Below, piece after piece: positions 1 to 10,087 of a stretch of 10,087 nt of DNA. A program made the position numbers and the translations under genes. The notes beneath the pieces were generated by a model. That model was given only the letters and a program-made list of their open reading frames with translations. It did no database searches and was not told the origin of the DNA. Source of the DNA: a virus (taxonomy: Duplodnaviria; Heunggongvirae; Uroviricota; Caudoviricetes); IMG/VR virus record IMGVR_UViG_2619619129_000007, positions 1 to 10,087 of that record, one strand, 5' to 3'. How positions within the stretch are numbered: the first letter of the stretch is position 1; each line of letters opens with the position of its first letter.

Positions 1-674
1 ATTTCGCCCAGGGGATCACCATAATAAAATGCTGAGGCCTGGCCTTTGCGTAGTGCACGCATCACCTCAATACCTTTGATGGTGGCGTAAGCCGTCTTCA
101 TGGATTTAAATCCCAGCGTGGCGCCGATTATCCGTTTCAGTTTGCCATGATCGCATTCAATCACGTTGTTCCGGTACTTAATCTGTCGGTGTTCAACGTC
201 AGACGGGCACCGGCCTTCGCGTTTGAGCAGAGCAAGCGCGCGACCATAGGCGGGCGCTTTATCCGTGTTGATGAATCGCGGGATCTGCCACTTCTTCACG
301 TTGTTGAGGATTTTACCCAGAAACCGGTATGCAGCTTTGCTGTTACGACGGGAGGAGAGATAAAAATCGACAGTGCGGCCCCGGCTGTCGACGGCCCGGT
401 ACAGATACGCCCAGCGGCCATTGACCTTCACGTAGGTTTCATCCATGTGCCACGGGCAAAGATCGGAAGGGTTACGCCAGTACCAGCGCAGCCGTTTTTC
501 CATTTCAGGCGCATAACGCTGAACCCAGCGGTAAATCGTGGAGTGATCGACATTCACTCCGCGTTCAGCCAGCATCTCCTGCAGCTCACGGTAACTGATG
601 CCGTATTTGCAGTACCAGCGTACGGCCCACAGAATGATGTCACGCTGAAAATGCCGGCCTTTGAATGGGTTCAT
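1..674 (-). CDS. tnpA: IS26 DDE transposase (Tnp26), 3' end truncated by the window edge
   Basis: Minus-strand ATG at 674-672 translates MNPFKGRHFQRDIILWAVRWYCKYGISYRELQEMLAERGVNVDHSTIYRWVQRYAPEMEKRL... and runs out of the window at ...FYYGDPLGE, with 224 full codons visible. The + strand track ORF 147..860 is its antisense shadow. Confidence 0.9.
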   Translation of the reverse strand, partial: MNPFKGRHFQRDIILWAVRWYCKYGISYRELQEMLAERGVNVDHSTIYRWVQRYAPEMEKRLRWYWRNPSDLCPWHMDETYVKVNGRWAYLYRAVDSRGRTVDFYLSSRRNSKAAYRFLGKILNNVKKWQIPRFINTDKAPAYGRALALLKREGRCPSDVEHRQIKYRNNVIECDHGKLKRIIGATLGFKSMKTAYATIKGIEVMRALRKGQASAFYYGDPLGE

Positions 675-723
675 GTGCAGCTCCATCAGCAAAAGGGGAT
701 GATAAGTTTATCACCACCGACTA

Positions 724-737
724 TTTGCAACAGTGCC
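724..737. repeat. IS26 14-bp terminal inverted repeat (left end, IRL)
   Basis: TTTGCAACAGTGCC on the + strand is the reverse complement of the IS26 terminal repeat GGCACTGTTGCAAA; it sits 63 bp upstream of the transposase ATG, as in IS26. Confidence 0.85.
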
Positions 738-815
738 ATAGATTCTTACGTAGCGTTTCTGGCGTGCATTTTCGGGTGGTTTGTTACTGTTTTTAACGGG
801 GATACGTCAGAAACG

Positions 816-834
816 CGCTCAGGCCGTCTGAGCG
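816..834 (-). terminator. Possible weak terminator hairpin downstream of the 357-aa minus-strand gene
   Basis: CGCTCAG-GCCGT-CTGAGCG gives a 7-bp perfect stem with a 5-nt loop. On the minus strand it is followed by GCGUUUCUGACG, an interrupted U tract, so termination is uncertain. Confidence 0.3.
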
Positions 835-937
835 GTACGCGTAATGAGGCGTTATGGTAAATAGCCTATGCTAATGTCCGCTAAGAGCGAGGAGCAGACG
901 TTGAAGGCTAAAAGAAGGCTACTGAATTTGTGGCGAT

Positions 938-2011
938 TCAGTCTTCATCCGCACAATGTGGGCAGCCCGTATACCTCATTGTCTCGCCCATTGCTTCACA
1001 GGGAGTCCCACAAATTTCACAAGTATCATAGCCTGTATGGATCTCAAGACATCGTGTGCACAGGAAGTTCTCGCCAAACACACAGACCGTTTCATGGCCC
1101 TCACAGTGAGCGCAATTTGCTAGGCCATCGGGATACATCATTTCGTCCACATGACGAAAATTCTCCTCATCAAGCAAGTTATACCTTGAGAGTTCTGCGT
1201 TACAGGTGCGGCAGATGAAGGTATCGTCATCTTCTTCTTCCACCGGCAGAACCTGGTCTGTATCACACTCAGGACAGGTAAACTTTACATGGCGCTCTGA
1301 GTGAAAACAGACGCGACAAGTTTGCTCATAAACGGTAGGACCGTTCTTCCCGACGGCAAGAATTTCCATGATGGCTGCTGGCTTGTGGCAAATGGTGCAG
1401 GGATGAAATTCAGCGCCCTCAGTCGCAAGTTGTTCCAGCTCGGGCTGGATATGTTTCAGACGGGCTTCGGCATAAAACTCGTTGCCTCGCAGGAGTTGTG
1501 TTTCACCTAATGCCAGTGCCCAGTTGTGTGGTGAAGCAAAATGCTGTTGCCAGTCTTCACGCATTAGTCGGTTCAGTGCAAACCATGCCCGAGCCTGTTC
1601 AGCCAGAATGGTCTCCACCTCAGAATCACTAAAAGCTGTATGAAAGAAATGAACTACACGGTTTCGGTGATTGCGAATGGTATTAAACACAGCTTCGGTT
1701 TCTTTAGGCAGGGGCTTTTCAAGGATATCCCTCAACCGGGTACAGACATCATCAAAGGACACCGACTGAAAATCACCGGCAAGGTAGCTTTTACGCGATA
1801 CTTTTTTACCGCTGCAGACCAGCGTCCAGTGTTCGCTGGCAAGGGGTACCTTGAGCAAAATTTCTACAGCTATCCAGAAACTAACTACCGAGTGTTTGTA
1901 CTGTTTGGCCTCGAACTCTTCACGTGCCTTATCCAGAAAATCCATGCCATTCTTAATGAGAGCCGCCACATCAGCTGCGAGAGGGGCAGGTAATTTTGTT
2001 CGTGTATGCAT
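938..2011 (-). CDS. Hypothetical protein (357 aa): N-terminal alpha-helical HEPN-like domain (candidate RNase motif R-N-R-V-V-H) plus four tandem C-terminal Cys4 zinc ribbons; candidate defence/abortive-infection effector
   Basis: Long uninterrupted minus-strand ORF. Preferred start is the ATG at 2011 (MHTRTKL...), preceded by GGAG with 6-nt spacing; the track's GTG at 2029 is 6 codons upstream. Residues 116-121 are RNRVVH, fitting the Rx4-6H HEPN motif. The C-terminal 150 aa carry eight CxxC pairs (CTIC, CRVC, CPEC, CRTC, CAHC, CTRC, CEIC, CPHC). No named family recognised. Confidence 0.8.
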   Translation of the reverse strand: MHTRTKLPAPLAADVAALIKNGMDFLDKAREEFEAKQYKHSVVSFWIAVEILLKVPLASEHWTLVCSGKKVSRKSYLAGDFQSVSFDDVCTRLRDILEKPLPKETEAVFNTIRNHRNRVVHFFHTAFSDSEVETILAEQARAWFALNRLMREDWQQHFASPHNWALALGETQLLRGNEFYAEARLKHIQPELEQLATEGAEFHPCTICHKPAAIMEILAVGKNGPTVYEQTCRVCFHSERHVKFTCPECDTDQVLPVEEEDDDTFICRTCNAELSRYNLLDEENFRHVDEMMYPDGLANCAHCEGHETVCVFGENFLCTRCLEIHTGYDTCEICGTPCEAMGETMRYTGCPHCADED

Positions 2012-2481
2012 CCTGATCTCCGTTATCACGGGGGGCCGGCAGCTGCTGCAGAGATTAGTGGGTATAGAGGATAAATCTTAGTTGCTGGCTGGCCACCACA
2101 TCGAGGGCAAAGACTTTGGTGTTGACCTCATTGCACTCAAACTTCTCATGCACCATCAGCCATTGCAGGATCTTCGGATGAACAAGGCCATACAACAGGT
2201 GCATTACAAGACTGATCCTACCCAATGTGAGCAAGACCCTAGCGAGGTTATAGTTTCAATAAATTCCGAGCTGAGTCCGCCACAGCACAGTGATTTCGCC
2301 ACCGATTGTAATCTCACTCGATAAAATTAAACACAGTTATTCGCATCATTTCCCGGCTGGCAATGCGTTCACCGTGGATGCCATATTAGATAGCTCCCTT
2401 GGAAACCCTTAACGTCCGCTCCTGGCACAAAGCGGACAGTGATCACCGTTCTTACGACTACTTTCTGACTTCCTTCGTGAC

Positions 2482-2540
2482 TTGCCCTAAGCATGTTGTA
2501 GTGCGATACTTGTAATGACATTTGTAATTACAAGAGGTGT
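2482..2540 (+). promoter_or_regulatory. relBE promoter with relO operator repeats and relB ribosome-binding site
   Basis: TTGCCC (2482-2487), 17-bp spacer, GATACT (2505-2510). This overlaps the tandem operator repeats TTGTAATGACAT and TTGTAATTACAA (2509-2534), followed by AGAGGTG and the relB ATG at 2546. RelB/RelE autoregulation at such repeats is established knowledge. Confidence 0.6.
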
Positions 2541-2545
2541 AAGAC

Positions 2546-2785
2546 ATGGGTAGCATTAACCTGCGTATTGACGATGAACTTAAAGCGCGTTCTTACGCCG
2601 CGCTTGAAAAAATGGGCGTAACTCCTTCTGAAGCGCTTCGTCTCATGCTCGAGTATATCGCTGACAATGAACGCTTGCCGTTCAAACAGACACTCCTGAG
2701 TGATGAAGATGCTGAACTTGTGGAGATAGTGAAAGAACGGCTTCGTAAGCCTAAGCCAGTACGTGTGACGCTGGATGAACTCTGA
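2546..2785 (+). CDS. relB: RelB antitoxin (type II TA, ribbon-helix-helix)
   Basis: 79-aa translation MGSINLRIDDELKARSYAALEKMGVTPSEALRLMLEYIADNERLPFKQTLLSDEDAELVEIVKERLRKPKPVRVTLDEL is near-identical to E. coli K-12 RelB as I recall it. Its stop overlaps the relE start (TGATG). Confidence 0.93.
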   Translation: MGSINLRIDDELKARSYAALEKMGVTPSEALRLMLEYIADNERLPFKQTLLSDEDAELVEIVKERLRKPKPVRVTLDEL

Positions 2786-3072
2786 TGGCGTATTTTCTGG
2801 ATTTTGACGAGCGGGCACTAAAGGAATGGCGAAAGCTGGGCTCGACGGTACGTGAACAGTTGAAAAAGAAGCTGGTTGAAGTACTTGAGTCACCCCGGAT
2901 TGAAGCAAACAAGCTCCGTGGTATGCCTGATTGTTACAAGATTAAGCTCCGGTCTTCAGGCTATCGCCTTGTATACCAGGTTATAGACGAGAAAGTTGTC
3001 GTTTTCGTGATTTCTGTTGGGAAAAGAGAACGCTCGGAAGTATATAGCGAGGCGGTCAAACGCATTCTCTGA
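2785..3072 (+). CDS. relE: RelE toxin (ribosome-dependent mRNA interferase)
   Basis: 95-aa translation MAYFLDFDERALKEWRKLGSTVREQLKKKLVEVLESPRIEANKLRGMPDCYKIKLRSSGYRLVYQVIDEKVVVFVISVGKRERSEVYSEAVKRIL matches E. coli RelE in length and sequence from memory; translationally coupled to relB. Confidence 0.93.
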   Translation: MAYFLDFDERALKEWRKLGSTVREQLKKKLVEVLESPRIEANKLRGMPDCYKIKLRSSGYRLVYQVIDEKVVVFVISVGKRERSEVYSEAVKRIL

Positions 3073-3143
3073 ACCAAAGCATGACATCTCTGTTTCGCAC
3101 CGAAGGTGACACTTCTGCTTTGCGTTGACAGGAGAAGCAGGCT

Positions 3144-3299
3144 ATGAAGCAGCAAAAGGCGATGTTAATCGCCCTGATCGTCATCTGTTTAACCGTCATA
3201 GTGACGGCACTGGTAACGAGGAAAGACCTCTACGAGGTACGAATCCGAACCGGCCAGACGGAGGTCGCTGTCTTCACAGCTTACGAACCTGAGGAGTAA
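3144..3299 (+). CDS. hokD: Hok-family type I membrane toxin (HokD/RelF-like, 51 aa), third gene of the relBEF operon; carries Tyr at the usually conserved Cys position
   Basis: Not in the ORF track (under 60 aa). ATG at 3144 preceded by GGAGAAG; translation MKQQKAMLIALIVICLTVIVTALVTRKDLYEVRIRTGQTEVAVFTAYEPEE. Hok/Gef proteins normally read RKDLCEV here; this copy has TAC (Tyr). Confidence 0.85.
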   Translation: MKQQKAMLIALIVICLTVIVTALVTRKDLYEVRIRTGQTEVAVFTAYEPEE

Positions 3300-3306
3300 G
3301 AGACCA

Positions 3307-3328
3307 GGCGAGGGAGAAATCCCTCGCC
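3307..3328 (+). other. Stable GNRA-tetraloop hairpin in the hokD 3' untranslated region (possible fold-back/stability element)
   Basis: GGCGAGGGA-GAAA-TCCCTCGCC: 9-bp perfect stem closed by a GAAA loop, 8 nt after the hokD stop, with no U tract following. Confidence 0.5.
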
Positions 3329-3367
3329 ACCTCTGATGAGTCAGGCATCCTCAACGCACCCGCACTT

Positions 3368-3394
3368 AACCCGCTTCGGCGGGTTTTGTTTTTT
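3368..3394 (+). terminator. Rho-independent terminator ending the relB-relE-hokD operon
   Basis: CCCGC-TTCG-GCGGG stem-loop (3370-3383) followed by TTTTGTTTTTT. Confidence 0.65.
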
Positions 3395-3466
3395 CCTGGC
3401 ATTCTGGTTTACAATTCGCACGCCAGCCTGAACAACTGGCACCTGCTGCGCCAGCAGAGACAACCG

Positions 3467-3745
3467 ATGGCGCACGATACCAAATTACACAATTCTGATG
3501 ATTCTGCCGTCTTTGCCAGCAGGCACGGGCGGCGTTCCCGCACTTTCAAATCTGACTGGTTCCAGCATCCCCCATGCACTGAAGAACAGGCCGAGTGGCT
3601 AATTCAGTGCTACCGCAGACACGGATACGAGATTAAGAAAGCCCTCAGCCTCGATTATCGTCACTGGATAATCTCCGTCAGGCTTCCTTACTCCGAGCGC
3701 CCACCGCGTCCGTCCCGCACATACCAGCAACGGATCTGGAGGTAA
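3467..3745 (+). CDS. Hypothetical small protein, Rem-like by position (between hokD and ydfU as in K-12 Qin)
   Basis: ORF MAHDTKLHNSDDSAVFASRHGRRSRTFKSDWFQHPPCTEEQAEWLIQCYRRHGYEIKKALSLDYRHWIISVRLPYSERPPRPSRTYQQRIWR. The first in-frame ATG is at 3467; the track's 3386 start is a TTG inside the terminator U tract. The stop lies within GGAGGTAACGTG, which supplies the RBS and GTG start of the next gene. Identity to rem is positional only. Confidence 0.5.
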   Translation: MAHDTKLHNSDDSAVFASRHGRRSRTFKSDWFQHPPCTEEQAEWLIQCYRRHGYEIKKALSLDYRHWIISVRLPYSERPPRPSRTYQQRIWR

Positions 3746-3746
3746 C

Positions 3747-4796
3747 GTGCGGATATTACTTCGACCTGTTCTGGTACCGGAACTCGGGCTTGTGGTCCTT
3801 AGGCCGGGCTGTGAATCCATGCAAGTATTTCATAACCCTCGAGTGCTGGTGGAGCCTGAACCGAAAAGCATGCGTAATCTGCCGTCCGGGGTCGTTCCTG
3901 CCGTTCGCCAGCCGCTAGTGGAAGACAAAACATTGCTGCCGTTTTTCAGTAACGCACGGGTGATTCGTGCTGCTGGTGGTGCTGGTGCATTGTCTGACTG
4001 GCTGTTGCGCCATATTAAATCCTGCCAGTGGCCACACGGCGATTATCATCACAGCGAAACCGTCATTCACCGTTATGGTACCGGCGCAATGGTGTTGTGC
4101 TGGCACTGCGACAACCAGTTGCGTGACCAGACATCCGAATCACTCGAGCAACTTGCTCATCAAAACCTGTCAGCATGGATGATTGACGTCATCGGTCACG
4201 CAATAAGCGGTACGCAGGAGCGTGAATTATCTCTGGCTGAATTATCCTGGTGGGCGGTCCGCAATCAGGTGGCGGACGCGCTACCGGAAGCGGTATTACG
4301 TCGTTCGCTGGGGTTGCGTGCGGAAAAAATCCGCTCAATGTACCGTGAAAGCGACATCGTGCCGGGAGAGCAGACCGCCACCAGCATACTGAAACAGCGC
4401 ACAAAAAATCTTGCGCCGCTGCCTCACGCCCACCAGCAACAGAACCCACCACAGGAAAAGACGGTGGTCAGCATTGCCGTTGATCCTGAGTCTCCGGAAT
4501 CTTTCATGAAACGACCTAAACGTCGCCGCTGGGTTAACGAGAAATACACACGCTGGGTGAAGACACAGCCGTGTGCGTGTTGTGGTAAGCCAGCCGACGA
4601 TCCCCATCACCTGATTGGTCATGGTCAGGGCGGAATGGGGACAAAATCTCACGATATTTTCACGCTACCGCTGTGTCGGGAGCATCACAACGAGCTTCAT
4701 GCGGATCCGCTGGCGTTCGAAGAAAAGCATGGTTCTCAGGTTGATTTAATTTTTCGTTTTCTTGATCACGCCTTTGCAACTGGCGTGCTTGGGTAA
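3747..4796 (+). CDS. ydfU: DUF968-family protein (YdfU-like), with a C-terminal HNH-like Cys/His motif
   Basis: 349-aa ORF from a GTG at 3747 with GGAGG 5 nt upstream. The C-terminus carries CACCGKPADDPHHLIGHGQGG...CREHHNELH. Length and position match my recollection of K-12 Qin ydfU. Confidence 0.72.
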   Translation: MRILLRPVLVPELGLVVLRPGCESMQVFHNPRVLVEPEPKSMRNLPSGVVPAVRQPLVEDKTLLPFFSNARVIRAAGGAGALSDWLLRHIKSCQWPHGDYHHSETVIHRYGTGAMVLCWHCDNQLRDQTSESLEQLAHQNLSAWMIDVIGHAISGTQERELSLAELSWWAVRNQVADALPEAVLRRSLGLRAEKIRSMYRESDIVPGEQTATSILKQRTKNLAPLPHAHQQQNPPQEKTVVSIAVDPESPESFMKRPKRRRWVNEKYTRWVKTQPCACCGKPADDPHHLIGHGQGGMGTKSHDIFTLPLCREHHNELHADPLAFEEKHGSQVDLIFRFLDHAFATGVLG

Positions 4797-4808
4797 AAGA
4801 GGTGACTG

Positions 4809-5165
4809 ATGCTCATAGATTTGGTTTTACCTTACCCACCGACGGTGAACACTTACTGGCGACGCCGTGGCAGCACATATTTTATCTCGGAGGAGGGAAA
4901 GCGTTATCGCCGGGCTGTGGCGCTTATTGTTCGCCAGCAGCGGCTGAAATTAAGCCTGTCCGGAAGGCTGGCGATAAAGGTGATTGCAGAGCCACCGGAT
5001 AAGCGTCGTCGCGACCTGGACAATATCCTGAAAGCACCGCTGGATGCGCTGACGCATGCGGGAGTGTTAATGGACGATGAGCAGTTTGATGAAATCAATA
5101 TCGTTCGTGGTCAGCCAGTATCTGGTGGACGTCTGGGGGTGAAGATTTACCCCATAATGCATTAA
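4809..5165 (+). CDS. rusA: RusA-family Holliday junction resolvase
   Basis: 118-aa translation contains PPDKRRRDLDNILKAPLDALTHAGVLMDDEQ, matching the RusA acidic catalytic region and size; RBS AGAGGTG upstream; sits just upstream of Q as in lambdoid phages. Confidence 0.85.
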   Translation: MLIDLVLPYPPTVNTYWRRRGSTYFISEEGKRYRRAVALIVRQQRLKLSLSGRLAIKVIAEPPDKRRRDLDNILKAPLDALTHAGVLMDDEQFDEINIVRGQPVSGGRLGVKIYPIMH

Positions 5166-5179
5166 GAGCAGGTCAAAAA

Positions 5180-6001
5180 ATGAAACTGGAAGATTTACCG
5201 AAATACTACTCCCCAAAATCCCCTGGCCTGACCGATGCATCGGCCTCAACGTCAAAAGATGCGCTGAGTATCACTGATGTGATGGCCGCGCAGGGCATGA
5301 CACAGAATCGGGCTGAGATGGGTTTTTCTGCGTTCCTGGGGAAAATGGGCATCAGTATGAATGACAGGGCGCGGGCAACAGAATTACTGGCAGATTATGC
5401 ACTCAGTCGGTGCGATCGTGTGGCGGCGTTGAGAAAACTTCCGGCAGAAATAAAACCGGTAGTGATGCGCATTATGGCTTCGTACGCTTTTGAGGATTAT
5501 GCCCGTAGCGCAGCGAGTAAAAAGCAGTGCCCTTGTTGCTATGGGGAAAAATTTATTGAAAGCGTAGTTTTTACAAACAAGGTCCAGTATCCGGATGGTA
5601 AGCCGCCGGTATGGGCAAAGTGTACGAAAGGTGTGTATTCGTCTTACTGGGAAGAATGGAAAAAAGTCAGGGAGGTGGTAAAAGTTGCCTGTCCGGAGTG
5701 TGGCGGAAAGGGTGAGGTTTCCACCGCCTGTAAGGATTGCCGTGGGCGTGGTGTCGCCATTCATCGTGAAGAGTCGGTAAAACGTGGTATGCCTGTTATC
5801 AGAGACTGCCAGCGTTGTGGTGGTCGTGGCTATGAAAGACTACCATCAACGGAGGCATTTAATGCTATATGCGAGGTGACAAACCAGATAACACGCGCGT
5901 CATGGGAAAAAACAGTTAAGAAATTCTATGATGCGCTGGTGACCCGGTTTGATGTTGAAGAAGCATGGGCTGAGCGGCAGTTAAAAAAGGTAACTAGGTA
6001 A
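5180..6001 (+). CDS. Late-gene antitermination protein Q-like (273 aa) with DnaJ-like CxxCxGxG zinc-finger repeats
   Basis: Located between rusA and a pR'/tR'-like promoter-terminator pair. Contains CPCCYGEKF, CPECGGKGEV, CKDCRGRGV and CQRCGGRGYE. Assignment rests on position and these motifs, not on an alignment. Confidence 0.7.
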   Translation: MKLEDLPKYYSPKSPGLTDASASTSKDALSITDVMAAQGMTQNRAEMGFSAFLGKMGISMNDRARATELLADYALSRCDRVAALRKLPAEIKPVVMRIMASYAFEDYARSAASKKQCPCCYGEKFIESVVFTNKVQYPDGKPPVWAKCTKGVYSSYWEEWKKVREVVKVACPECGGKGEVSTACKDCRGRGVAIHREESVKRGMPVIRDCQRCGGRGYERLPSTEAFNAICEVTNQITRASWEKTVKKFYDALVTRFDVEEAWAERQLKKVTR

Positions 6002-6006
6002 CAAGG

Positions 6007-6034
6007 TTGATTTTTCCGGAATCTGTGGTAAATT
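6007..6034 (+). promoter_or_regulatory. Candidate late promoter pR' (extended -10) immediately downstream of Q
   Basis: TTGATT (6007-6012), 16-bp spacer, TGgTAAATT (6026-6034), placed as pR' is in lambdoid phages. Confidence 0.5.
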
Positions 6035-6082
6035 CGTCATAATAATGGGCTTTTTATGCCTGACGTTAGAAGAGTTTCTACA

Positions 6083-6107
6083 ACCCGCCGCCGAGCGGGT
6101 TTTTTAT
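6083..6107 (+). terminator. tR'-like intrinsic terminator (expected Q antitermination target)
   Basis: CCCGC-CGCCGA-GCGGG hairpin followed by TTTTTTATT, about 60 nt downstream of the candidate pR'. Confidence 0.6.
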
Positions 6108-6144
6108 TGCGGAATTAATTACGGACCGTTATTATTCTGCTCCC

Positions 6145-6220
6145 GGCCCTTTAGCTCAGTGGTGAGAGCGAGCGACTCATAATCGCCAGGTCGCTGGTTC
6201 AAATCCAGCAAGGGCCACCA
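6145..6220 (+). tRNA. ileZ: tRNA with CAU anticodon, ileX/ileZ-like (tRNA-Ile2, lysidine-type; tRNA-Met not excluded), CCA encoded
   Basis: Manual cloverleaf: acceptor GGCCCTT/AAGGGCC, D-arm GCTC...GAGC, anticodon loop CTCATAA (CAT at 6178-6180), T-arm GCTGG-TTCAAAT-CCAGC, discriminator A plus CCA. Resembles E. coli ileX from memory. Confidence 0.85.
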
Positions 6221-6320
6221 TCACAAACCGCCATTAGCTTATCAGGAAGAGCAGACGACACGATAACAGGGTTGTTGGTGCGGGGGCGGGTCCCCGATGG
6301 CGGTCCATTATCGGTATTCA

Positions 6321-6394
6321 GCGTTGTTAGCTCAGCCGGACAGAGCAATTGCCTTCTAAGCAATCGGTCACTGGTTCGAATCCAGTACAGCGCG
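6321..6394 (+). tRNA. argO: tRNA-Arg (anticodon UCU), argO-like, CCA not encoded
   Basis: Manual cloverleaf: acceptor GCGTTGT/ACAGCGC (one G-U pair), anticodon stem ATTGC/GCAAT, loop CTTCTAA (TCT at 6355-6357), T-arm ACTGG-TTCGAAT-CCAGT, discriminator G. Confidence 0.85.
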
Positions 6395-6534
6395 CTATAT
6401 TCATTCTTCCAGATTCCTTCCGGCAGAGCCTTATACTGAAATATACCTGGCTCAGGATATTGTTGAAAATATTTTATGTTTGTCAAAAATAAAAGTTCTG
6501 TTAAGTATTGATTGAGTGTTTGTTATACGGTCTA

Positions 6535-6861
6535 ATGGTTTTTTCAGCATTAAATATTTATCATTCATATGGTGTGGGTAGAGTGAATATTGATGAGGCG
6601 TCGGGGTGTTTCATCCTTAGGCAGCGTATTGATATAGTCAATGCAGGACGAGCAAAGGCCTTCAGCCGTTTGACAGTTTTGTTCTGTACTCCTGATCGTC
6701 TTTCGGGAAGAGACGTTATTATTCTGAATAGTGATGCTATACAGAGGGTTTGCGATGAGTTCATGGTTGCTAATTCAGAATTATTTGCTCTTGTTCAGGA
6801 GTACAACAGAATAGCCAGGACCTGTGGTATGGATGAACTTCGGATTACTCATCTGGGGTAG
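6535..6861 (+). CDS. Hypothetical cargo protein (about 108 aa), unrecognised
   Basis: ORF in moderately AT-rich DNA after tRNA-Arg. First in-frame ATG at 6535 (track start 6508 is a TTG); in-frame GTGs at 6574 and 6583 are alternatives. Candidate promoter TTGTCA-N16-TAAGTA at about 6478-6505. No family recognised; coding status unproven. Confidence 0.4.
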   Translation: MVFSALNIYHSYGVGRVNIDEASGCFILRQRIDIVNAGRAKAFSRLTVLFCTPDRLSGRDVIILNSDAIQRVCDEFMVANSELFALVQEYNRIARTCGMDELRITHLG

Positions 6862-7253
6862 ATACATATCTGGATTATCACTTGTTACGGTAAAAAGTGA
6901 TTGCTTACTGTTTTTGTGAGTGGCATTGCAGCAGCCGGATAATGTCAGTGCTGGCTGACGGTGTGCTGGTGGCGGGTGTGGTGGTTGTTGCTTTCCCGTT
7001 GCTGAAAAAGAAAACGCCAGACTGTTAGCCGGGTATCAGTTAGCGGGAGAAATTTTTAAATACTTCACAATTCAGGCGGTTGACTGTTGTCTGGTTTGCG
7101 GGGAGTTTGTTAAAAGAAACTGGCATGGTGAATCCCCCTGTGCGGAGGGGCAATCAGCGAGTAGGTATATGGGATAATCGCGGATTCAGGTGCTGGTACT
7201 GAATTCACCGGGAGGCACCCGGCACCATGCAATGGCACATAGCGCCACTCTCC

Positions 7254-7290
7254 AGCCCCTCTCCGGAGGGGCTGTTTATATTGATTTTGT
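7254..7290 (+). terminator. Strong intrinsic terminator closing the plus-strand cargo unit
   Basis: AGCCCCTC-TCCG-GAGGGGCT: 8-bp perfect stem, followed on the + strand by GTTTATATTGATTTTGT. No U tract on the minus side. Confidence 0.6.
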
Positions 7291-7308
7291 CAGATGTGAG
7301 TAAACTCC

Positions 7309-7644
7309 TTATGGACTTTGTTGTTTTAGTCCATAAGGACATATTTGCAGAGTGCAACGGTTATTAAAGCATTCATTCAATACGTTATCTGTATTTGTAG
7401 GACATTCCTGGCTGTTTTTGATTAAATTCCAGAATGTTTTATTGAATGGTACTACGTTGTAAATGGTTACAGGTAGCACTTTGTTATTGAGCATGATACC
7501 TGTGTGAGTCAGTGTAAATATACTTTCAGGAGGTAAGAAAGCATCCGATTGATACCAGATTATTAATTTTATTTTACTCCATATGACTGAAAAAGATATT
7601 CCGCATGATGGCTGGATAACTGTATCAATCACAATCCACTTCAT
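7309..7644 (-). CDS. Hypothetical Cys-containing protein (111 aa) in strongly AT-rich DNA, transcribed against the late operon
   Basis: Minus-strand ORF with a good RBS (AAGGAAGCTAA then ATG at 7644). Translation [43 protein letters not shown]...[31 protein letters not shown]. No family recognised. Confidence 0.5.
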
Positions 7645-7904
7645 TTAGCTTCCTTGTTTATGCCTTGCTGGTGATGTTCTGAAAAGTATAAATGATATTT
7701 TTGAATATAAACCATAGAGCAGAATTATTTTTCTGATGTTGTTTATTGTTTATTTAAATGCAGGGTGGTTTATATCTCGTCTTGTAGTTTATCCATGCAT
7801 ATCTGCTTGATGATCAGGTTTCTATTTAAGGTATGGTTTTGTGTTTTTTCTGTGTTACATGTCTGGTATTTTAAAGAATTATTTTTCAGATGGTGGAAAG
7901 AACC

Positions 7905-8093
7905 ATGGCATTTAAACACTATGATGTTGTCAGGGCGGCGCCGCCGTCAGATCTTGCGGAAAAGCTGACACATAAACTGAAAGAGGGCTGGCAGCCGTTT
8001 GGTAGTCCGGTGGCCATAACCCCTTATACCCTGATGCAGGCGATTGCAGCAGAAGGTGATGTGGTGGTCAGTGGTGCAACTGAGCCCGAGTGA
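7905..8093 (+). CDS. Small DUF1737-like phage protein commonly found just upstream of holin genes
   Basis: Translation MAFKHYDVVRAAPPSDLAEKLTHKLKEGWQPFGSPVAITPYTLMQAIAAEGDVVVSGATEPE. Start chosen at the ATG at 7905 (GGAAAG upstream) rather than the track's 7890. Family name recalled from memory. Confidence 0.65.
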   Translation: MAFKHYDVVRAAPPSDLAEKLTHKLKEGWQPFGSPVAITPYTLMQAIAAEGDVVVSGATEPE

Positions 8094-8335
8094 TACTACG
8101 TCATCGTACTGGCCCGGCATTCCAGGCCATAAAAGACAGTCTGGCAGTGGGACTAAATGTACTGACGCTGACGGATATTACCAAAAATGCAACGTATGGC
8201 GTTGAGATAGAAAGTCTGGTGCTGGAGATAAATGCACCGGCATCATCATAAAAAGTGAGCCAGTCAAATGGAAGGTATCGTTAAACTCACCGGTAGTGTC
8301 AGTGGATCGTCTGAGACGCTTGCATGAGTTATCAG

Positions 8336-8368
8336 AGCCATCAGTAGTTAACTGGTGGCTTTTTTATT
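8336..8368 (+). terminator. Intrinsic terminator-like hairpin about 35 bp upstream of the holin start
   Basis: AGCCATCAG-TAGTTAA-CTGGTGGCT: 9-bp stem with one G-U pair, followed by TTTTTTATT. Confidence 0.5.
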
Positions 8369-8400
8369 GTTGTCAGCTTCCGGATAACGGGAGACGGGGT

Positions 8401-8616
8401 ATGGACCAGATGGAAAAAATCACAACAGGTGTGTCATACACCACGTCAGCGGTGGGAACGGGCTACTGGTTCCTGCAGTTGCTGGACAGGGTTTCCCCGT
8501 CTCAGTGGGCGGCAATAGGCGTGCTGGGGAGTCTGCTGTTTGGGCTGCTGACATATCTGACTAACCTGTATTTCAAAATCAGAGAGGACCGTCGTAAGGC
8601 GGCACGGGGAGAGTAA
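8401..8616 (+). CDS. Class II holin of the phage 21 S21 pinholin family (71 aa), with dual-start motif M-D-Q-M
   Basis: Translation [71 protein letters not shown] closely resembles S21 as recalled (...[14 protein letters not shown]...[21 protein letters not shown]). The track ORF from 8296 is an in-frame upstream extension. Confidence 0.88.
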
Positions 8617-8620
8617 TTCA

Positions 8621-8971
8621 ATGACTCAAAACTATGAACTGATTGTGAAAGGGATCCGCAATTTTGAGAATAAAGTTACGGTAACTTTAGCGTTACGGGA
8701 CAAAAAACGCTTTGACGGTGAAATTTTTGACCTGGACATCTCGCTGGACCGTGTTGAAGGTGCCGCGCTGGAGTTTTATGAGGCAGCAGCCAGAATGAGC
8801 ATCAGACAGGTCTTCCTGGATGTTGCTGCCGGGTTATGTGAAGGGGATGAGCAGTCGCCGGAAAAGCGCCCCGTAATTTTAGAGGCGCAGAATGTATGGA
8901 TAACCTACAAAGGAAAGCTACCGGGAAGAATTACTGGTTCTCTGAAGACTCCTCCGGAATCACAACCTTAA
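8621..8971 (+). CDS. Hypothetical protein between holin and endolysin, YdfR-like (possibly DUF1327)
   Basis: 116-aa ORF starting 5 nt after the holin stop: MTQNYELIVKGIRNFENKVTVTLALRDKKRFDGEIFDLDISLDRVEGAALEFYEAAARMSIRQVFLDVAAG... A gene occupies this slot in K-12 Qin (ydfR); family number is from uncertain memory. Confidence 0.6.
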   Translation: MTQNYELIVKGIRNFENKVTVTLALRDKKRFDGEIFDLDISLDRVEGAALEFYEAAARMSIRQVFLDVAAGLCEGDEQSPEKRPVILEAQNVWITYKGKLPGRITGSLKTPPESQP

Positions 8972-9034
8972 GTCACTGACCGGAACAGATAAACCTGTCC
9001 GTGGGCAGAAACCGATAAATCCTGATAAATATCC

Positions 9035-9568
9035 ATGAACGCAAAAATCAGATACGGCCTGTCGGCTGCCGTTCTGGCACTGATTGCCGTCGGTGCGCCC
9101 GCGCCTGATATTCTCGACCAGTTTCTGGATGAAAAAGAAGGTAACCACACAACGGCATACCGCGATGGGTCCGGCATCTGGACCATCTGTCGGGGTGCCA
9201 CGATGGTGGATGGAAAACCCGTTTTTCCCGGTATGAAACTGTCGAAGGAAAAATGCGACCAGGTCAACGCCATTGAGCGTGATAAGGCGCTGGCATGGGT
9301 GGAGCGCAATATTAAAGTACTACTGACCGAACCACAAAAAGCGGGTATAGCGTCATTCTGTCCCTATAACATTGGCCCCGGTAAGTGTTTCCCGTCGACG
9401 TTTTATAAGCGGCTGAATGCCGGTGATCGTAAGGGCGCATGCGAGGCGATTCGCTGGTGGATAAAAGATGGTGGGCGCGATTGCCGCATACGTTCAAATA
9501 ACTGCTATGGACAGGTTATTCGTCGTGACCAGGAAAGCGCATTAGCCTGTTGGGGGATAGAGCAGTGA
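9035..9568 (+). CDS. SAR endolysin (phage lysozyme with N-terminal signal-anchor-release domain), R21/RrrQ-like, 177 aa
   Basis: N-terminal Gly/Ala-rich weakly hydrophobic segment [16 protein letters not shown] followed by a lysozyme-like E...D...T region ([22 protein letters not shown]). Pairs naturally with the pinholin. No obvious SD upstream. Confidence 0.85.
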
Positions 9569-10026
9569 GCAGAGTCGCCGCGATTATTTATGCTTTGGTT
9601 ATCTGCATCATCGTCTGCCTGTCGTGGGCGGTCAATCATTACCGTGATAACGCCATCGCCTACAAAGAACAGCGTGATAAAAAAGTCAGTGAGCTGAAGC
9701 AGTCGATCGCCACCATCGCTGACATGCAGCAGCGTCAGCGTGATGTTGCTGCACTCGATGCAAAGTACTCGAGAGAATTAGCCAATGCGAAAGCTGAAAA
9801 TGAAACTCTGCGCGCTGATGTTGCCGCTGGTCGTCGTCGGTTGCACATCAAAGCAGTCTGTCAGTCAGTGCGTGAAGCCACCACCGCCTCCGGCGTGGAT
9901 AATGCAACCAGCCCCCGACTGGCAGACACCGCTGAACGGGATTATTTCACCCTCAGAGAGAGGCTGATCACTATGCAAAAACAACTGGAAGGAACCCAGA
10001 AGTATATTAATGAGCAGTGCAGATAG
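9562..10026 (+). CDS. Rz inner-membrane spanin (i-spanin), lambda Rz-like
   Basis: From GTG at 9562: [30 protein letters not shown]...[62 protein letters not shown], near-identical to lambda Rz as I recall it; overlaps the endolysin stop. Confidence 0.9.
9785..9967 (+). CDS. Rz1 outer-membrane lipoprotein spanin (o-spanin), embedded in Rz in the +1 frame
   Basis: [60 protein letters not shown]: signal peptide with lipobox (VVGC), proline-rich mature part, fully nested in Rz as in lambda. Confidence 0.85.
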
Positions 10027-10087
10027 AGCTGCCCATATCGATGGGCAACTCATGCAATTATTGTGAGCAATACACACGCGCTTCCAG

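What the first reader, a model, noticed from the sequence alone, without database searches (positions are those of the whole stretch)
1..745. IS26 inserted about 200 bp downstream of the orphan gene, with only one junction visible
IS26 commonly mobilises resistance genes and forms deletions and cointegrates. Its IRL abuts prophage DNA at 737/738, and the element runs off the window. The insertion may have removed or truncated whatever originally followed the 357-aa gene, and may link this prophage to a resistance-associated region. The 8 bp next to the IR (ATAGATTC, 738-745) would be the target-site duplication if this was a simple insertion.
Basis: partly seen in the sequence, partly recalled or inferred. 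Interest (0 to 1): 0.45.

Follow-up and report, generated by a model that had tools for sequence, protein, structure and literature searches.

The report
IS26 edge of a travelling plasmid segment
The IS26 copy is real, but it most likely did not jump into this prophage: it bounds a 2.4-kb segment already found in well over a hundred resistance plasmids, and that segment appears to have been spliced onto an E. coli prophage through their shared relBE genes, which is an ordinary kind of event.

Summary
Window 1-737 is IS26, 100% identical, with 83 bp off-window. The terminal repeat lies at 724-737 and is followed by ATAGATTC, 200 bp past the stop of the 357-aa gene.

The same IS26|ATAGATTC junction occurs in 132 PLSDB plasmids and 38 complete E. 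coli records. None of eight copies read has ATAGATTC at the other IS26 end, and the reciprocal junction was found nowhere. Thirteen IS26-free relatives read ...CAGTCATAGG|ATAGATTCTTACG..., with an ISNCY-family transposase gene ending 41 bp to the left. That gene is what is missing here.

The window matches the plasmid segment exactly over 1-3103. It matches an IS26-free E. coli prophage (L019) exactly over 2750-10087. It carries 2749G, seen only in one plasmid lineage, and 3104A, the prophage allele. This fits homologous recombination within 2750-3103 (relB 3' end and relE). It rests on two informative SNPs and an unseen left flank.

Rivals are a progenitor prophage and an assembly chimera.

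The flanking DNA is a cer-like Xer site plus a hairpin-bounded cassette. The "orphan" gene is HEC-08, a published HEPN anti-phage gene. Interest is low for the IS26 itself.

The parts
1..737 (-). IS26, partial: 737 of 820 bp. The IRR end and the last 10 codons of tnp26 are off-window.
   Evidence: No mismatch to complete IS26 copies in L001, L003, L005 and others. Translation of 3-674 (-) gives 224 codons without a stop, matching DDE_Tnp_IS240 at E 2e-48.
724..737 (-). IS26 left terminal inverted repeat (GGCACTGTTGCAAA on the - strand).
   Evidence: Exact match. It is the only IS26 repeat in the window.
738..745 (.). ATAGATTC, the 8 bp flanking IRL. It would be the target-site duplication of the original insertion.
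   Evidence: It is single-copy and uninterrupted (...CAGTCATAGG|ATAGATTCTTACG...) in 13 IS26-free species-representative genomes. It is never repeated at the other IS26 end in 8 copies of this junction.
753..866 (+). cer-type Xer multimer-resolution site: accessory region plus a 29-bp core GGTACGCGTAA-TGAGGCG-TTATGGTAAAT at 834-862.
   Evidence: Aligns along its length with the equivalent site of small ColE1-like plasmids and a rop-adjacent fragment. The core pattern occurs once in the window; 0 matches were found in 200 shuffles.
876..899 (+). Left boundary stem-loop of the cargo slot: GTCCGCT-N10-AGCAGAC, with one stem mismatch.
   Evidence: The point at which all relatives diverge into different cargo. 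Identity with L008 and L013 starts inside it. The fold is no better than shuffles.
938..2011 (-). The 357-aa gene: HEC-08, with a HEPN (DUF3644) N-terminal domain and C-terminal zinc ribbons. It is an anti-phage defence gene.
   Evidence: PADLOC HEC-08 at E 4.9e-145 over 6-355, and DUF3644 at E 2.5e-62. No Pfam hit. Defence activity of HEC-08 and the role of its HEPN histidine are reported in bioRxiv 10.1101/2024.01.29.577857.
2055..2204 (-). 49-aa gene that always accompanies HEC-08 in the cassette.
   Evidence: Annotated in all records and co-located with HEC-08 in L008 and L013. No family hit.
2414..2437 (+). Right boundary stem-loop of the cargo slot: GTCCGCT-CCTGGCACAA-AGCGGAC, with a perfect 7-bp stem.
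   Evidence: Identity with L008 and L013 ends here, and backbone homology with K-12 and L019 starts here. Fold -7.6 kcal/mol, z -2.74.
2546..3072 (+). relB (2546-2785, Lys68 variant caused by 2749G) and relE (2785-3072) toxin-antitoxin genes.
   Evidence: NCBIfam RelB at E 1e-38 and RelE at E 1e-14. 2749G is found only in plasmid lineage A and in this window.
2750..3103 (.). Inferred crossover interval between the IS26-borne plasmid-type segment and the resident prophage.
   Evidence: The window has no mismatch to plasmid pSC138 over 1-3103 and none to prophage L019 over 2750-10087. The flanking informative sites are 2749 (G, plasmid lineage A) and 3104 (A, prophage; plasmids have G).
3131..10087 (+). 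Lambdoid (Qin/L019-like) prophage: hokD (3144-3299), DUF968, rusA, Q antiterminator, two tRNA genes as annotated in the matching stretch of L004, iraM-like gene, holin, lysozyme, Rz. The bor/iss gene that follows in L004 and L019 starts at about 10058.
   Evidence: Homology to every plasmid copy stops at 3130. Identity is 98.5-99% to many E. coli chromosomal prophages from 3130 onward, and 100% to L019. hokD matches Pfam HOK_GEF at E 2e-23.

Best explanation
Window 1-737 is an ordinary IS26. Its junction with ATAGATTC is old and inherited; it did not arise by insertion into this prophage. At some earlier time IS26 landed 41 bp downstream of an ISNCY-family transposase gene, just before a cer-like Xer site. 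The DNA on the transposase side was then lost or separated, as happens in IS26 cointegrate formation and adjacent deletion. That left IS26 as the fixed left boundary of a 2.4-kb passenger: the cer-like site, the HEC-08 defence cassette, a ydfV fragment and relBE. This passenger now travels inside IS26-rich resistance regions of plasmids in many genera, and in some chromosomes. In the genome sampled here, a molecule carrying that segment (plasmid lineage A, marked by relB 2749G) underwent RecA-type homologous recombination with the nearly identical relBE genes of a resident L019-like lambdoid prophage. The crossover lay between 2750 and 3103. This fused the IS26-bounded segment in perfect register to hokD and the prophage late genes.

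Shown: the identity of IS26, the shared junction, the absence of a duplicated 8-mer in other copies, the uninterrupted target in IS26-free relatives, and the two-parent identity pattern.

Inferred: the recombination event itself and its direction. Also inferred is that plasmid or resistance DNA, and possibly a reciprocal hybrid relBE copy, lies to the left of the window.
For: IS26 identity is established.

The same junction is 100% identical over window 1-2942 or 1-3130 in E. coli, Salmonella, Citrobacter, Klebsiella, Edwardsiella, Enterobacter and Raoultella plasmids. A 301-nt probe spanning the junction is covered at 80% or more in 132 PLSDB records.

Eight copies of the junction have five different left flanks, and none is ATAGATTC.

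Thirteen IS26-free genomes show the intact target, with an ISNCY transposase gene to the left (NF033594, 462 bits).

Against pSC138 the window's only mismatch within 1-3130 is at 3104. Against L019 the only mismatches after 2410 are at 2419, 2476 and 2749, followed by 7,338 bp with none.

Plasmid lineage B (pTB402, L040) has 2749T and 3104G, and the same sequence after 3130. So 2749G is derived within plasmid lineage A, and 3104G is common to all plasmid copies. All prophages read (K-12, PhiR42_1, L019) have 2749T and 3104A.

None of 1,170 complete E. coli genomes with relE-hokD is identical to window 2700-3250; the best is 99.8%.

No record in the E. coli complete genomes, PLSDB or the phage collection holds the whole arrangement.

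The HEC-08 gene is absent from IMG/VR viral contigs, so there is no independent sign that this cassette lives in prophages.

IS26 behaviour (cointegrates only, an 8-bp duplication split between copies, adjacent deletions) follows PMC4196232, PMC4471558 and PMC7986276.
Against: The recombinant reading rests on only two informative SNPs, 2749 and 3104. One back-mutation plus one forward mutation would allow the opposite direction, with the window as progenitor.

The source genome was not found, so the DNA left of IS26 and the predicted reciprocal relBE copy are unseen.

The relBE of the plasmid segment is itself closer to the E. coli prophage type (2-3 differences) than to the IS26-free copies in the Kluyvera contig, the Enterobacter plasmid and the Superficieibacter contig (8 differences). 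The segment may therefore have come from an E. coli prophage at some earlier stage.

A mis-join of plasmid and chromosome across the 720-bp shared relBE repeat by an assembler would give the same pattern.
Confidence: 0.62

Rival explanations
1. Progenitor context. The window is the original prophage in which IS26 first landed, and the plasmid-borne IS26-HEC-08-relBE segment was captured from it. The plasmids later acquired 3104G and the truncation at 3130.
For: It would directly explain where the plasmid segment came from. relBE-hokD continuity across 3130 is the natural arrangement in K-12, PhiR42_1 and L019. The plasmid relBE is of the E. coli prophage type. The window is the only sequence seen in which the segment runs on into prophage DNA.
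Against: 2749G is derived. Plasmid lineage B, all prophages read, and the IS26-free copies in L026, L027 and L035 have T. A progenitor with 2749G would require lineage B to have reverted. The 738-890 flank and the cassette are 98.7-99.9% identical to non-E. coli sequences but only 89% identical to E. coli prophages. HEC-08 is absent from IMG/VR. No E. coli genome of 1,170 has this allele combination.
Confidence: 0.15
2. Assembly chimera. The strain holds a lineage A plasmid and a separate L019-like prophage, and the assembler joined them across the 99.6%-identical 720-bp relBE repeat.
For: The break in parentage falls exactly inside the only stretch shared by the two parents. No other public record shows the arrangement.
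Against: The window carries 737 bp of multi-copy IS26 in continuity with unique DNA, which suggests a long-read or finished assembly. Such assemblies rarely mis-join across 720 bp. Chromosomal copies of this segment do exist (L007, L009-L012, L038). This could not be tested with the tools available.
Confidence: 0.1
3. Fresh simple IS26 insertion into this prophage, with an ATAGATTC duplication at the unseen end and nothing lost.
For: The unseen end cannot be inspected. ATAGATTC is the intact target sequence in IS26-free relatives.
Against: IS26 shows little target preference (established knowledge of the family; PMC7986276 was listed but not read). An independent hit at the same base, next to DNA identical for 2.4 kb to 132 plasmids, is therefore not credible. 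The flank is of the plasmid lineage, not the resident prophage lineage (89%). No copy shows the duplication and no reciprocal junction exists in any collection searched.
Confidence: 0.03

Closest known systems
IS26 (IS6/IS26 family insertion sequence)
   Same: 737 of 737 visible bases are identical. The 14-bp terminal repeat, the Tnp26 reading frame and the DDE_Tnp_IS240 domain are all present.
   Different: Nothing differs in the visible part. The lineage-marking C-to-T change (Tnp26 WP_001067852), seen in the plasmid copies that carry HEC-08, lies one base before the window start and cannot be read.
The IS26-orf357-orf49-ydfV'-relBE segment of pSC138 (NC_006856) and of qnrS1/blaCTX-M-15 regions such as pCFSAN061763
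   Same: Identical junction and identical sequence over window 1-3103 (pSC138) or 1-2942 (pCFSAN061763).
   Different: In every plasmid the segment stops at 3130, where it is followed by sequence next to an ISSen3-type IS21-family element, or at 2942, where it is followed by the qnrS1 region. Here it runs on into hokD and 7 kb of prophage, and it has 3104A instead of G.
Qin-type lambdoid prophages of E. coli (K-12 Qin, phage PhiR42_1, the prophage in GCA_900448095.1 = L019)
   Same: Same layout: ISNCY element, cer-like site, cargo slot, relB, relE, hokD, DUF968, rusA, Q, lysis genes. L019 is identical over 2750-10087.
   Different: These prophages have no IS26. They carry other cargo (flxA-ydfV or a YegR-like gene), and their cer-like flank is only 89% identical to the window's.
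IS26-mediated adjacent deletion and cointegrate formation (Harmer, Moran & Hall 2014, PMC4196232; He et al. 2015, PMC4471558)
   Same: A lone IS26 without a flanking 8-bp duplication. A series of junctions of the same IS26 variant lies progressively deeper in the neighbouring DNA, at window positions 738, 903 and 925.
   Different: The join to the prophage at 2750-3103 is not an IS26 reaction. It lies 2 kb from the IS, inside a homologous gene pair.
IS1202-family elements that target Xer sites, and Acinetobacter dif modules (PMC10132070; bioRxiv 10.1101/2022.12.17.520857)
   Same: An ISNCY-type transposase gene sits directly beside a Xer recombination site and next to exchangeable cargo.
   Different: The IS end is about 85 bp from the XerC arm rather than 5 bp. 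It abuts the accessory region of a cer-type site. Only one Xer core is present, so the cargo is not a dif module. Membership of the IS1202 family proper was not tested.

Membership tests
IS26 (IS6/IS26 family) | 14-bp perfect terminal inverted repeats GGCACTGTTGCAAA | tested here: met
   An exact copy lies at 724-737. The second repeat is off-window.
IS26 (IS6/IS26 family) | A single DDE transposase, Tnp26, of 234 aa | tested here: met
   Codons 1-224 are open and identical at DNA level to complete copies. DDE_Tnp_IS240 matches at E 2e-48. The last 10 codons are off-window.
IS26 (IS6/IS26 family) | Element length of 820 bp | not testable with these tools
   Only 737 bp lie in the window. The source genome was not found.
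Simple IS26 insertion | The same 8-bp direct repeat (ATAGATTC) on both sides of the element | tested here: inconclusive
   This copy's other end is unseen. In 8 other copies of the same junction the other flank is GATGTCGC (4 copies), TCCCAGAG, TTCAATCC, CTGAAGAA or GTCAGAAG. The reciprocal junction is absent from PLSDB, E. coli complete genomes, JGI metagenomes and IMG/VR.
Simple IS26 insertion | Flanking sequence is uninterrupted in IS26-free relatives | tested here: met
   Thirteen species-representative genomes read ...CAGTCATAGG|ATAGATTCTTACG... with one copy of the 8-mer. This defines the original target. It does not show that the event happened in this prophage.
Homologous-recombination hybrid (plasmid segment x resident prophage) | Each side is identical to a different parent, with the switch inside a shared homologous stretch | tested here: met
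   Window 1-3103 has no mismatch to pSC138. Window 2750-10087 has no mismatch to L019. The informative sites are 2749 and 3104.
Homologous-recombination hybrid (plasmid segment x resident prophage) | A reciprocal product (second hybrid relBE copy) or donor DNA to the left | not testable with these tools
   The left flank lies outside the window, and the source was not located.
HEC-08 anti-phage defence protein (for the 357-aa gene) | Full-length match to the HEC-08 model, with an N-terminal DUF3644/HEPN domain carrying an Rx4-6H motif and C-terminal zinc ribbons | tested here: met
   PADLOC HEC-08 at E 4.9e-145 over residues 6-355, and DUF3644 at E 2.5e-62. An RNRVVH motif and multiple CxxC pairs are present in the translation. 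The family is described in bioRxiv 10.1101/2024.01.29.577857. Defence by this particular allele was not tested.
cer-type Xer site | XerC arm, 6-8 bp spacer and XerD arm (TTATGGTAAAT), preceded by an accessory region homologous to those of ColE1-type plasmids | tested here: met
   The core lies at 834-862, with 0 matches in 200 shuffles. A 115-bp stretch aligns to small-plasmid sites. Recombination activity was not tested.

The most novel reading that the evidence does not exclude
The DNA that IS26 abuts may be a loaded slot of a cassette-exchange system that, as far as I know, has not been described. A cargo position lies beside a cer-like Xer site and an ISNCY element, and is bounded by two 24-nt stem-loops (GTCCGCT-N10-AGCGGAC). 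In different genomes this position holds different genes: HEC-08, flxA-ydfV, a YegR-like gene, a 269-aa gene, or a cytochrome b561 gene with a CDF transporter gene. The HEC-08 cassette also sits in two unrelated chromosomal or ICE-like contexts, and there its identity to the window starts and ends inside the stem-loops. One of those contexts has a compensatory stem change. If the stem-loops are recombination sites, this system moves defence genes between prophages, plasmids and chromosomes, and IS26 has captured one loaded slot and now spreads it together with resistance genes.
Probability: 0.15. Interest if true: 0.6.

Novelty: already known. Interest (0 to 1): 0.2.

Why it matters
For the IS26 itself the significance is small. 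It is a textbook IS26 boundary, and the exact junction is already present in more than a hundred public plasmids.

Two points have modest practical value. First, the window is the only sequence found in which this travelling segment is fused to a chromosomal-type prophage. That suggests an IS26-rich, probably resistance-bearing, region has been anchored next to prophage late genes through a shared toxin-antitoxin locus. This route to integration needs no transposition.

Second, a published anti-phage gene (HEC-08) and a relBE addiction module ride as passengers of IS26 alongside qnrS1/blaCTX-M-15 and similar regions. Antibiotic selection may therefore also spread phage defence.

The hairpin-bounded cargo slot is the only element here that could lead to something new.

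Tried and rejected
1. Finding the source genome to read left of IS26. No record holds the whole window in E. coli complete genomes, PLSDB or the phage collection. Exact-protein look-ups of HEC-08 and of the DUF968 protein did not return it. A recombinant-specific gapped pattern (2749G ... 3104A-hokD) found nothing in JGI metagenomes or IMG/VR.

2. Looking for the reciprocal junction (ISNCY end + ATAGATTC + IS26). None was found in PLSDB, E. coli genomes, metagenomes or IMG/VR. The top BLAST hits there were a spurious 32-nt extension beside an unrelated IS26.

3. Looking for the HEC-08 cassette in viral contigs as a sign of a native prophage home. None was found.

4. The idea that the cargo is a dif-type module flanked by two Xer sites. 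Rejected, because the window has only one Xer core.

5. The idea that 738-890 is the end of the ISNCY element. Rejected for 753-866, which aligns with cer sites of 3-kb plasmids that have no room for an IS. Terminal repeats of the ISNCY element were not resolved.

6. The idea that the plasmid boundary at 3130 came from an IS21-family insertion into a relE-hokD spacer. No hokD sequence was found beyond the IS in the plasmid loci fetched, so this remains unresolved.

7. The left stem-loop of the slot does not fold better than shuffled sequence. The hairpin idea rests on comparison between genomes, not on folding energy.

Full report
**1. The observation**

Window 1-737 is IS26. It has no mismatch to complete 820-bp copies in several fetched records. 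The 14-bp terminal repeat lies at 724-737. tnp26 is on the minus strand, starting at 674; 224 of its 234 codons are in the window and they are open. The repeat at 724-737 is therefore IRL, and 83 bp at the IRR end lie outside the window. The flank at 738-745 is ATAGATTC. The 357-aa gene (938-2011, minus strand) stops 200 bp away.

**2. The junction is inherited, not local**

Window 1-2400 is 100% identical to 28 listed E. coli records, and 38 records cover at least 80% of it. Window 1-3130 is identical, apart from one base, to plasmids of Salmonella (including pSC138), Citrobacter, Klebsiella, Edwardsiella, Enterobacter and Raoultella. A 301-nt probe spanning the junction is covered at 80% or more in 132 PLSDB plasmids.

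In these records the segment lies in IS-rich regions. Examples are pCFSAN061763, where it sits beside ISKpn19-qnrS1 and ISEcp1-blaCTX-M-15, and a chromosomal island beside mph(A). It also occurs inserted at different chromosomal sites in assemblies whose neighbouring genes suggest Salmonella, and in E. coli.

In eight copies of the junction the other IS26 flank takes five different values, none of them ATAGATTC.

Related records show the same IS26 variant at window positions 903 and 925, and an IS1 at 1027. This is the pattern expected from serial adjacent deletions by one IS26 copy (PMC4471558, PMC4196232).

**3. What the target looked like before IS26**

An exact scan of one genome per species with window 739-776 gave 13 hits. 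They were in Citrobacter, Kluyvera, Enterobacter, Pseudocitrobacter, Huaxiibacter, Superficieibacter, a Pantoea candidate, a Buttiauxella assembly and an Escherichia sp. All 13 lack IS26 at this position and read ...CAGTCATAGG|ATAGATTCTTACG... with the 8-mer present once.

The gene to the left is a 446-aa ISNCY-family transposase (NF033594, 462 bits against a cutoff of 250). It ends 41 bp before the insertion point. Phage PhiR42_1 has the whole element. In K-12 Qin, ydfX and ydfW lie at the same position, and the K-12 stretch aligns with the 3' end of the element, so I read them as its remnants.

What IS26 removed is therefore this transposase gene and everything beyond it. A query built as the reciprocal junction (ISNCY end + ATAGATTC + IS26 end) found no full-length match in PLSDB or the E. 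coli genomes. An exact 28-nt version found nothing in JGI metagenomes or IMG/VR.

**4. What the flanking DNA is**

- 753-866 is a cer-type Xer site. It aligns along its length with sites of small ColE1-like plasmids. Its 29-bp core at 834-862 is unique in the window and was found in none of 200 shuffles.
- About 876-2437 is a cargo cassette holding the 357-aa and 49-aa genes.
- The 357-aa protein matches the PADLOC HEC-08 model over its full length (E 4.9e-145). It has a DUF3644/HEPN N-terminal domain and C-terminal CxxC ribbons. HEC-08 is reported as an active single-gene anti-phage defence that depends on its HEPN histidine (bioRxiv 10.1101/2024.01.29.577857). The gene is therefore not an orphan.
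- relB and relE follow at 2546-3072, then hokD at 3144-3299.

**5. The window has two parents**

No plasmid copy continues past 3130. Many E. coli chromosomal prophages match the window only from 3130 onward, at 98.5-99%.

An exact look-up of the window's DUF968 protein found L019 (GCA_900448095.1), an IS26-free prophage. It has the window's gene order from relB to bor. Base by base, the window differs from L019 after 2410 only at 2419, 2476 and 2749, and then not at all for 7,338 bp. It differs from pSC138 within 1-3130 only at 3104.

A second plasmid lineage (pTB402 and a poultry E. coli plasmid) has 2749T and 3104G, and the same sequence after 3130. K-12, PhiR42_1 and L019 all have 2749T and 3104A. 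The Kluyvera contig (L026), the Enterobacter plasmid (L027) and the Superficieibacter contig (L035) have 2749T and 3104T.

So 2749G (RelB Asn68Lys) is a derived mark of plasmid lineage A. 3104G is common to all plasmid copies, and 3104A is the prophage state. The window combines 2749G with 3104A.

None of 1,170 complete E. coli genomes that carry relE-hokD matches window 2700-3250 perfectly. The flank at 738-890 is 100% identical to the plasmid copies and 98.7% to the non-E. coli IS26-free copies. It is only 89% identical to K-12, PhiR42_1 and L019.

**6. Interpretation**

The most economical account has three steps.
- An IS26-bounded segment of plasmid lineage A entered a cell that had an L019-like prophage.
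- It recombined with that prophage's relBE genes between 2750 and 3103.
- This placed IS26 and its passenger in register with hokD and the late genes.

This needs no mutation. The opposite direction, with the window as progenitor of the plasmid segment, needs 3104A>G plus a reversion at 2749 in lineage B. It also needs an E. coli prophage that already had a non-E. coli-type flank and cassette, and there is no independent evidence for one. HEC-08 is absent from IMG/VR.

I rate the recombinant reading at about 0.6. I rate the progenitor reading at 0.15, an assembly chimera across the 720-bp shared relBE at 0.1, and a fresh simple insertion at 0.03. The weak points are that only two SNPs are informative and that the left flank could not be read.

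The join itself is not an IS26 reaction. IS26's role was earlier: it created the fixed boundary and carries the segment between replicons.

**7. Comparison with what is known**

IS26, lone IS26 copies without a duplication, serial adjacent deletions, and integration of plasmid DNA by homologous recombination are all well described. The exact junction already exists in public records. I therefore class the finding as already known, and of low interest in itself.

**8. Side observations**

The cargo position is bounded by two 24-nt stem-loops, at 876-899 and 2414-2437. The right one folds significantly better than shuffles (z -2.74) and the left one does not.

Different genomes hold different cargo between the same two stem-loops. 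In the Enterobacter plasmid L027 and its close relatives, an IS110-family transposase gene follows a break in the left loop, so I infer that an IS110-family IS has inserted there.

The HEC-08 cassette also occurs at 99.7-99.9% identity in two unrelated, IS26-free contexts (L008 and L013). There, identity starts and ends inside the stem-loops. L008 shows a compensatory stem change, GTCTGCT...AGCAGAC.

A 269-aa-gene cassette that follows the same IS26 junction in L005 starts exactly at the left stem-loop. It occurs inverted in the cargo slot of prophage L024.

Position 3130 is a shared boundary in three unrelated settings: the plasmids, the Kluyvera contig L026, and prophages that lack relBE.

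Together these hint at a cassette-exchange mechanism. I did not establish one.

Noticed in passing
window 938-2011 (- strand): The '357-aa orphan gene' matches the PADLOC HEC-08 model over its full length (E 4.9e-145). It has a DUF3644/HEPN N-terminal domain with an RNRVVH motif, and C-terminal CxxC ribbons. HEC-08 is a published, experimentally active anti-phage gene (bioRxiv 10.1101/2024.01.29.577857). Here it travels with IS26-associated resistance regions.
   Followed up: yes
window 753-866 (core 834-862): A cer-type Xer multimer-resolution site, homologous over about 115 bp to sites of 3-6 kb ColE1-like plasmids. It lies directly right of the IS26 junction, and it lies in the same place in K-12 Qin, between ydfW and flxA. 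No feature is annotated under the match in any record listed, including K-12.
   Followed up: partly
L027 736-2076; L002 4513-6154; K-12 ydfX/ydfW (L006 3497-3959): The gene that precedes the IS26 insertion point in IS26-free relatives is an ISNCY-family transposase (NF033594). K-12's ydfX and ydfW lie at the same position, and the K-12 stretch aligns with the 3' end of the element, so they appear to be its remnants. The element always sits beside the cer-like site. This recalls IS1202-family targeting of Xer sites (PMC10132070), but at about 85 bp rather than 5 bp from the XerC arm.
   Followed up: partly
window 876-899 and 2414-2437; L008, L013, L005, L024, L026, L027: The cargo slot is bounded by two 24-nt stem-loops, GTCCGCT-N10-AGCGGAC. 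Different genomes hold different cargo between them. The HEC-08 cassette also sits in two unrelated IS26-free contexts, with identity starting and ending inside the stem-loops and one compensatory stem change. A 269-aa-gene cassette starts at the same stem-loop and occurs inverted in another prophage. This may be a hairpin-based cassette-exchange system.
   Followed up: partly
window 3130/3131: Three unrelated contexts share a boundary at exactly this base. Plasmid copies of the segment end here and continue as CCCTCTGATTTAGAC..., next to an IS21-family element. The Kluyvera contig L026 ends here. E. coli prophages without relBE begin their homology here, at the hokD ribosome-binding site. The cause is unexplained.
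   Followed up: partly
L001 12000, i.e. one base before window position 1: All copies of IS26 adjacent to the HEC-08 segment (junctions at 738, 903 and 925) carry a C-to-T change that gives Tnp26 variant WP_001067852. By my reading of the codon this is Met-to-Ile near the C-terminus. The L005 copy with different cargo has the canonical base. The marker lies just outside the window.
   Followed up: partly
L038, L039, L040 (window equivalents 903, 925, 1027): Related records have IS26 abutting the segment at 903 or 925, or IS1 at 1027. The IS1 case truncates HEC-08, which is annotated there as 'HsdR'. This looks like progressive erosion of the 200-bp spacer and of the gene by adjacent deletions.
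   Followed up: partly
window 2747-2749: relB codon 68 is AAG (Lys) here and in plasmid lineage A. It is AAT (Asn) in K-12 and in every other copy read. This is a single derived change that serves as the lineage marker. Its effect on antitoxin function is unknown.
   Followed up: no
L027 2271-3800, and the same stretch in L029, L031, L033, L035, L036: An IS110-family (DEDD) transposase gene follows directly after a break in the loop of the left stem-loop (GTCCGCTAAGAGCGAG|ATATAG...). This fits the known preference of that family for specific structured sites.
   Followed up: no
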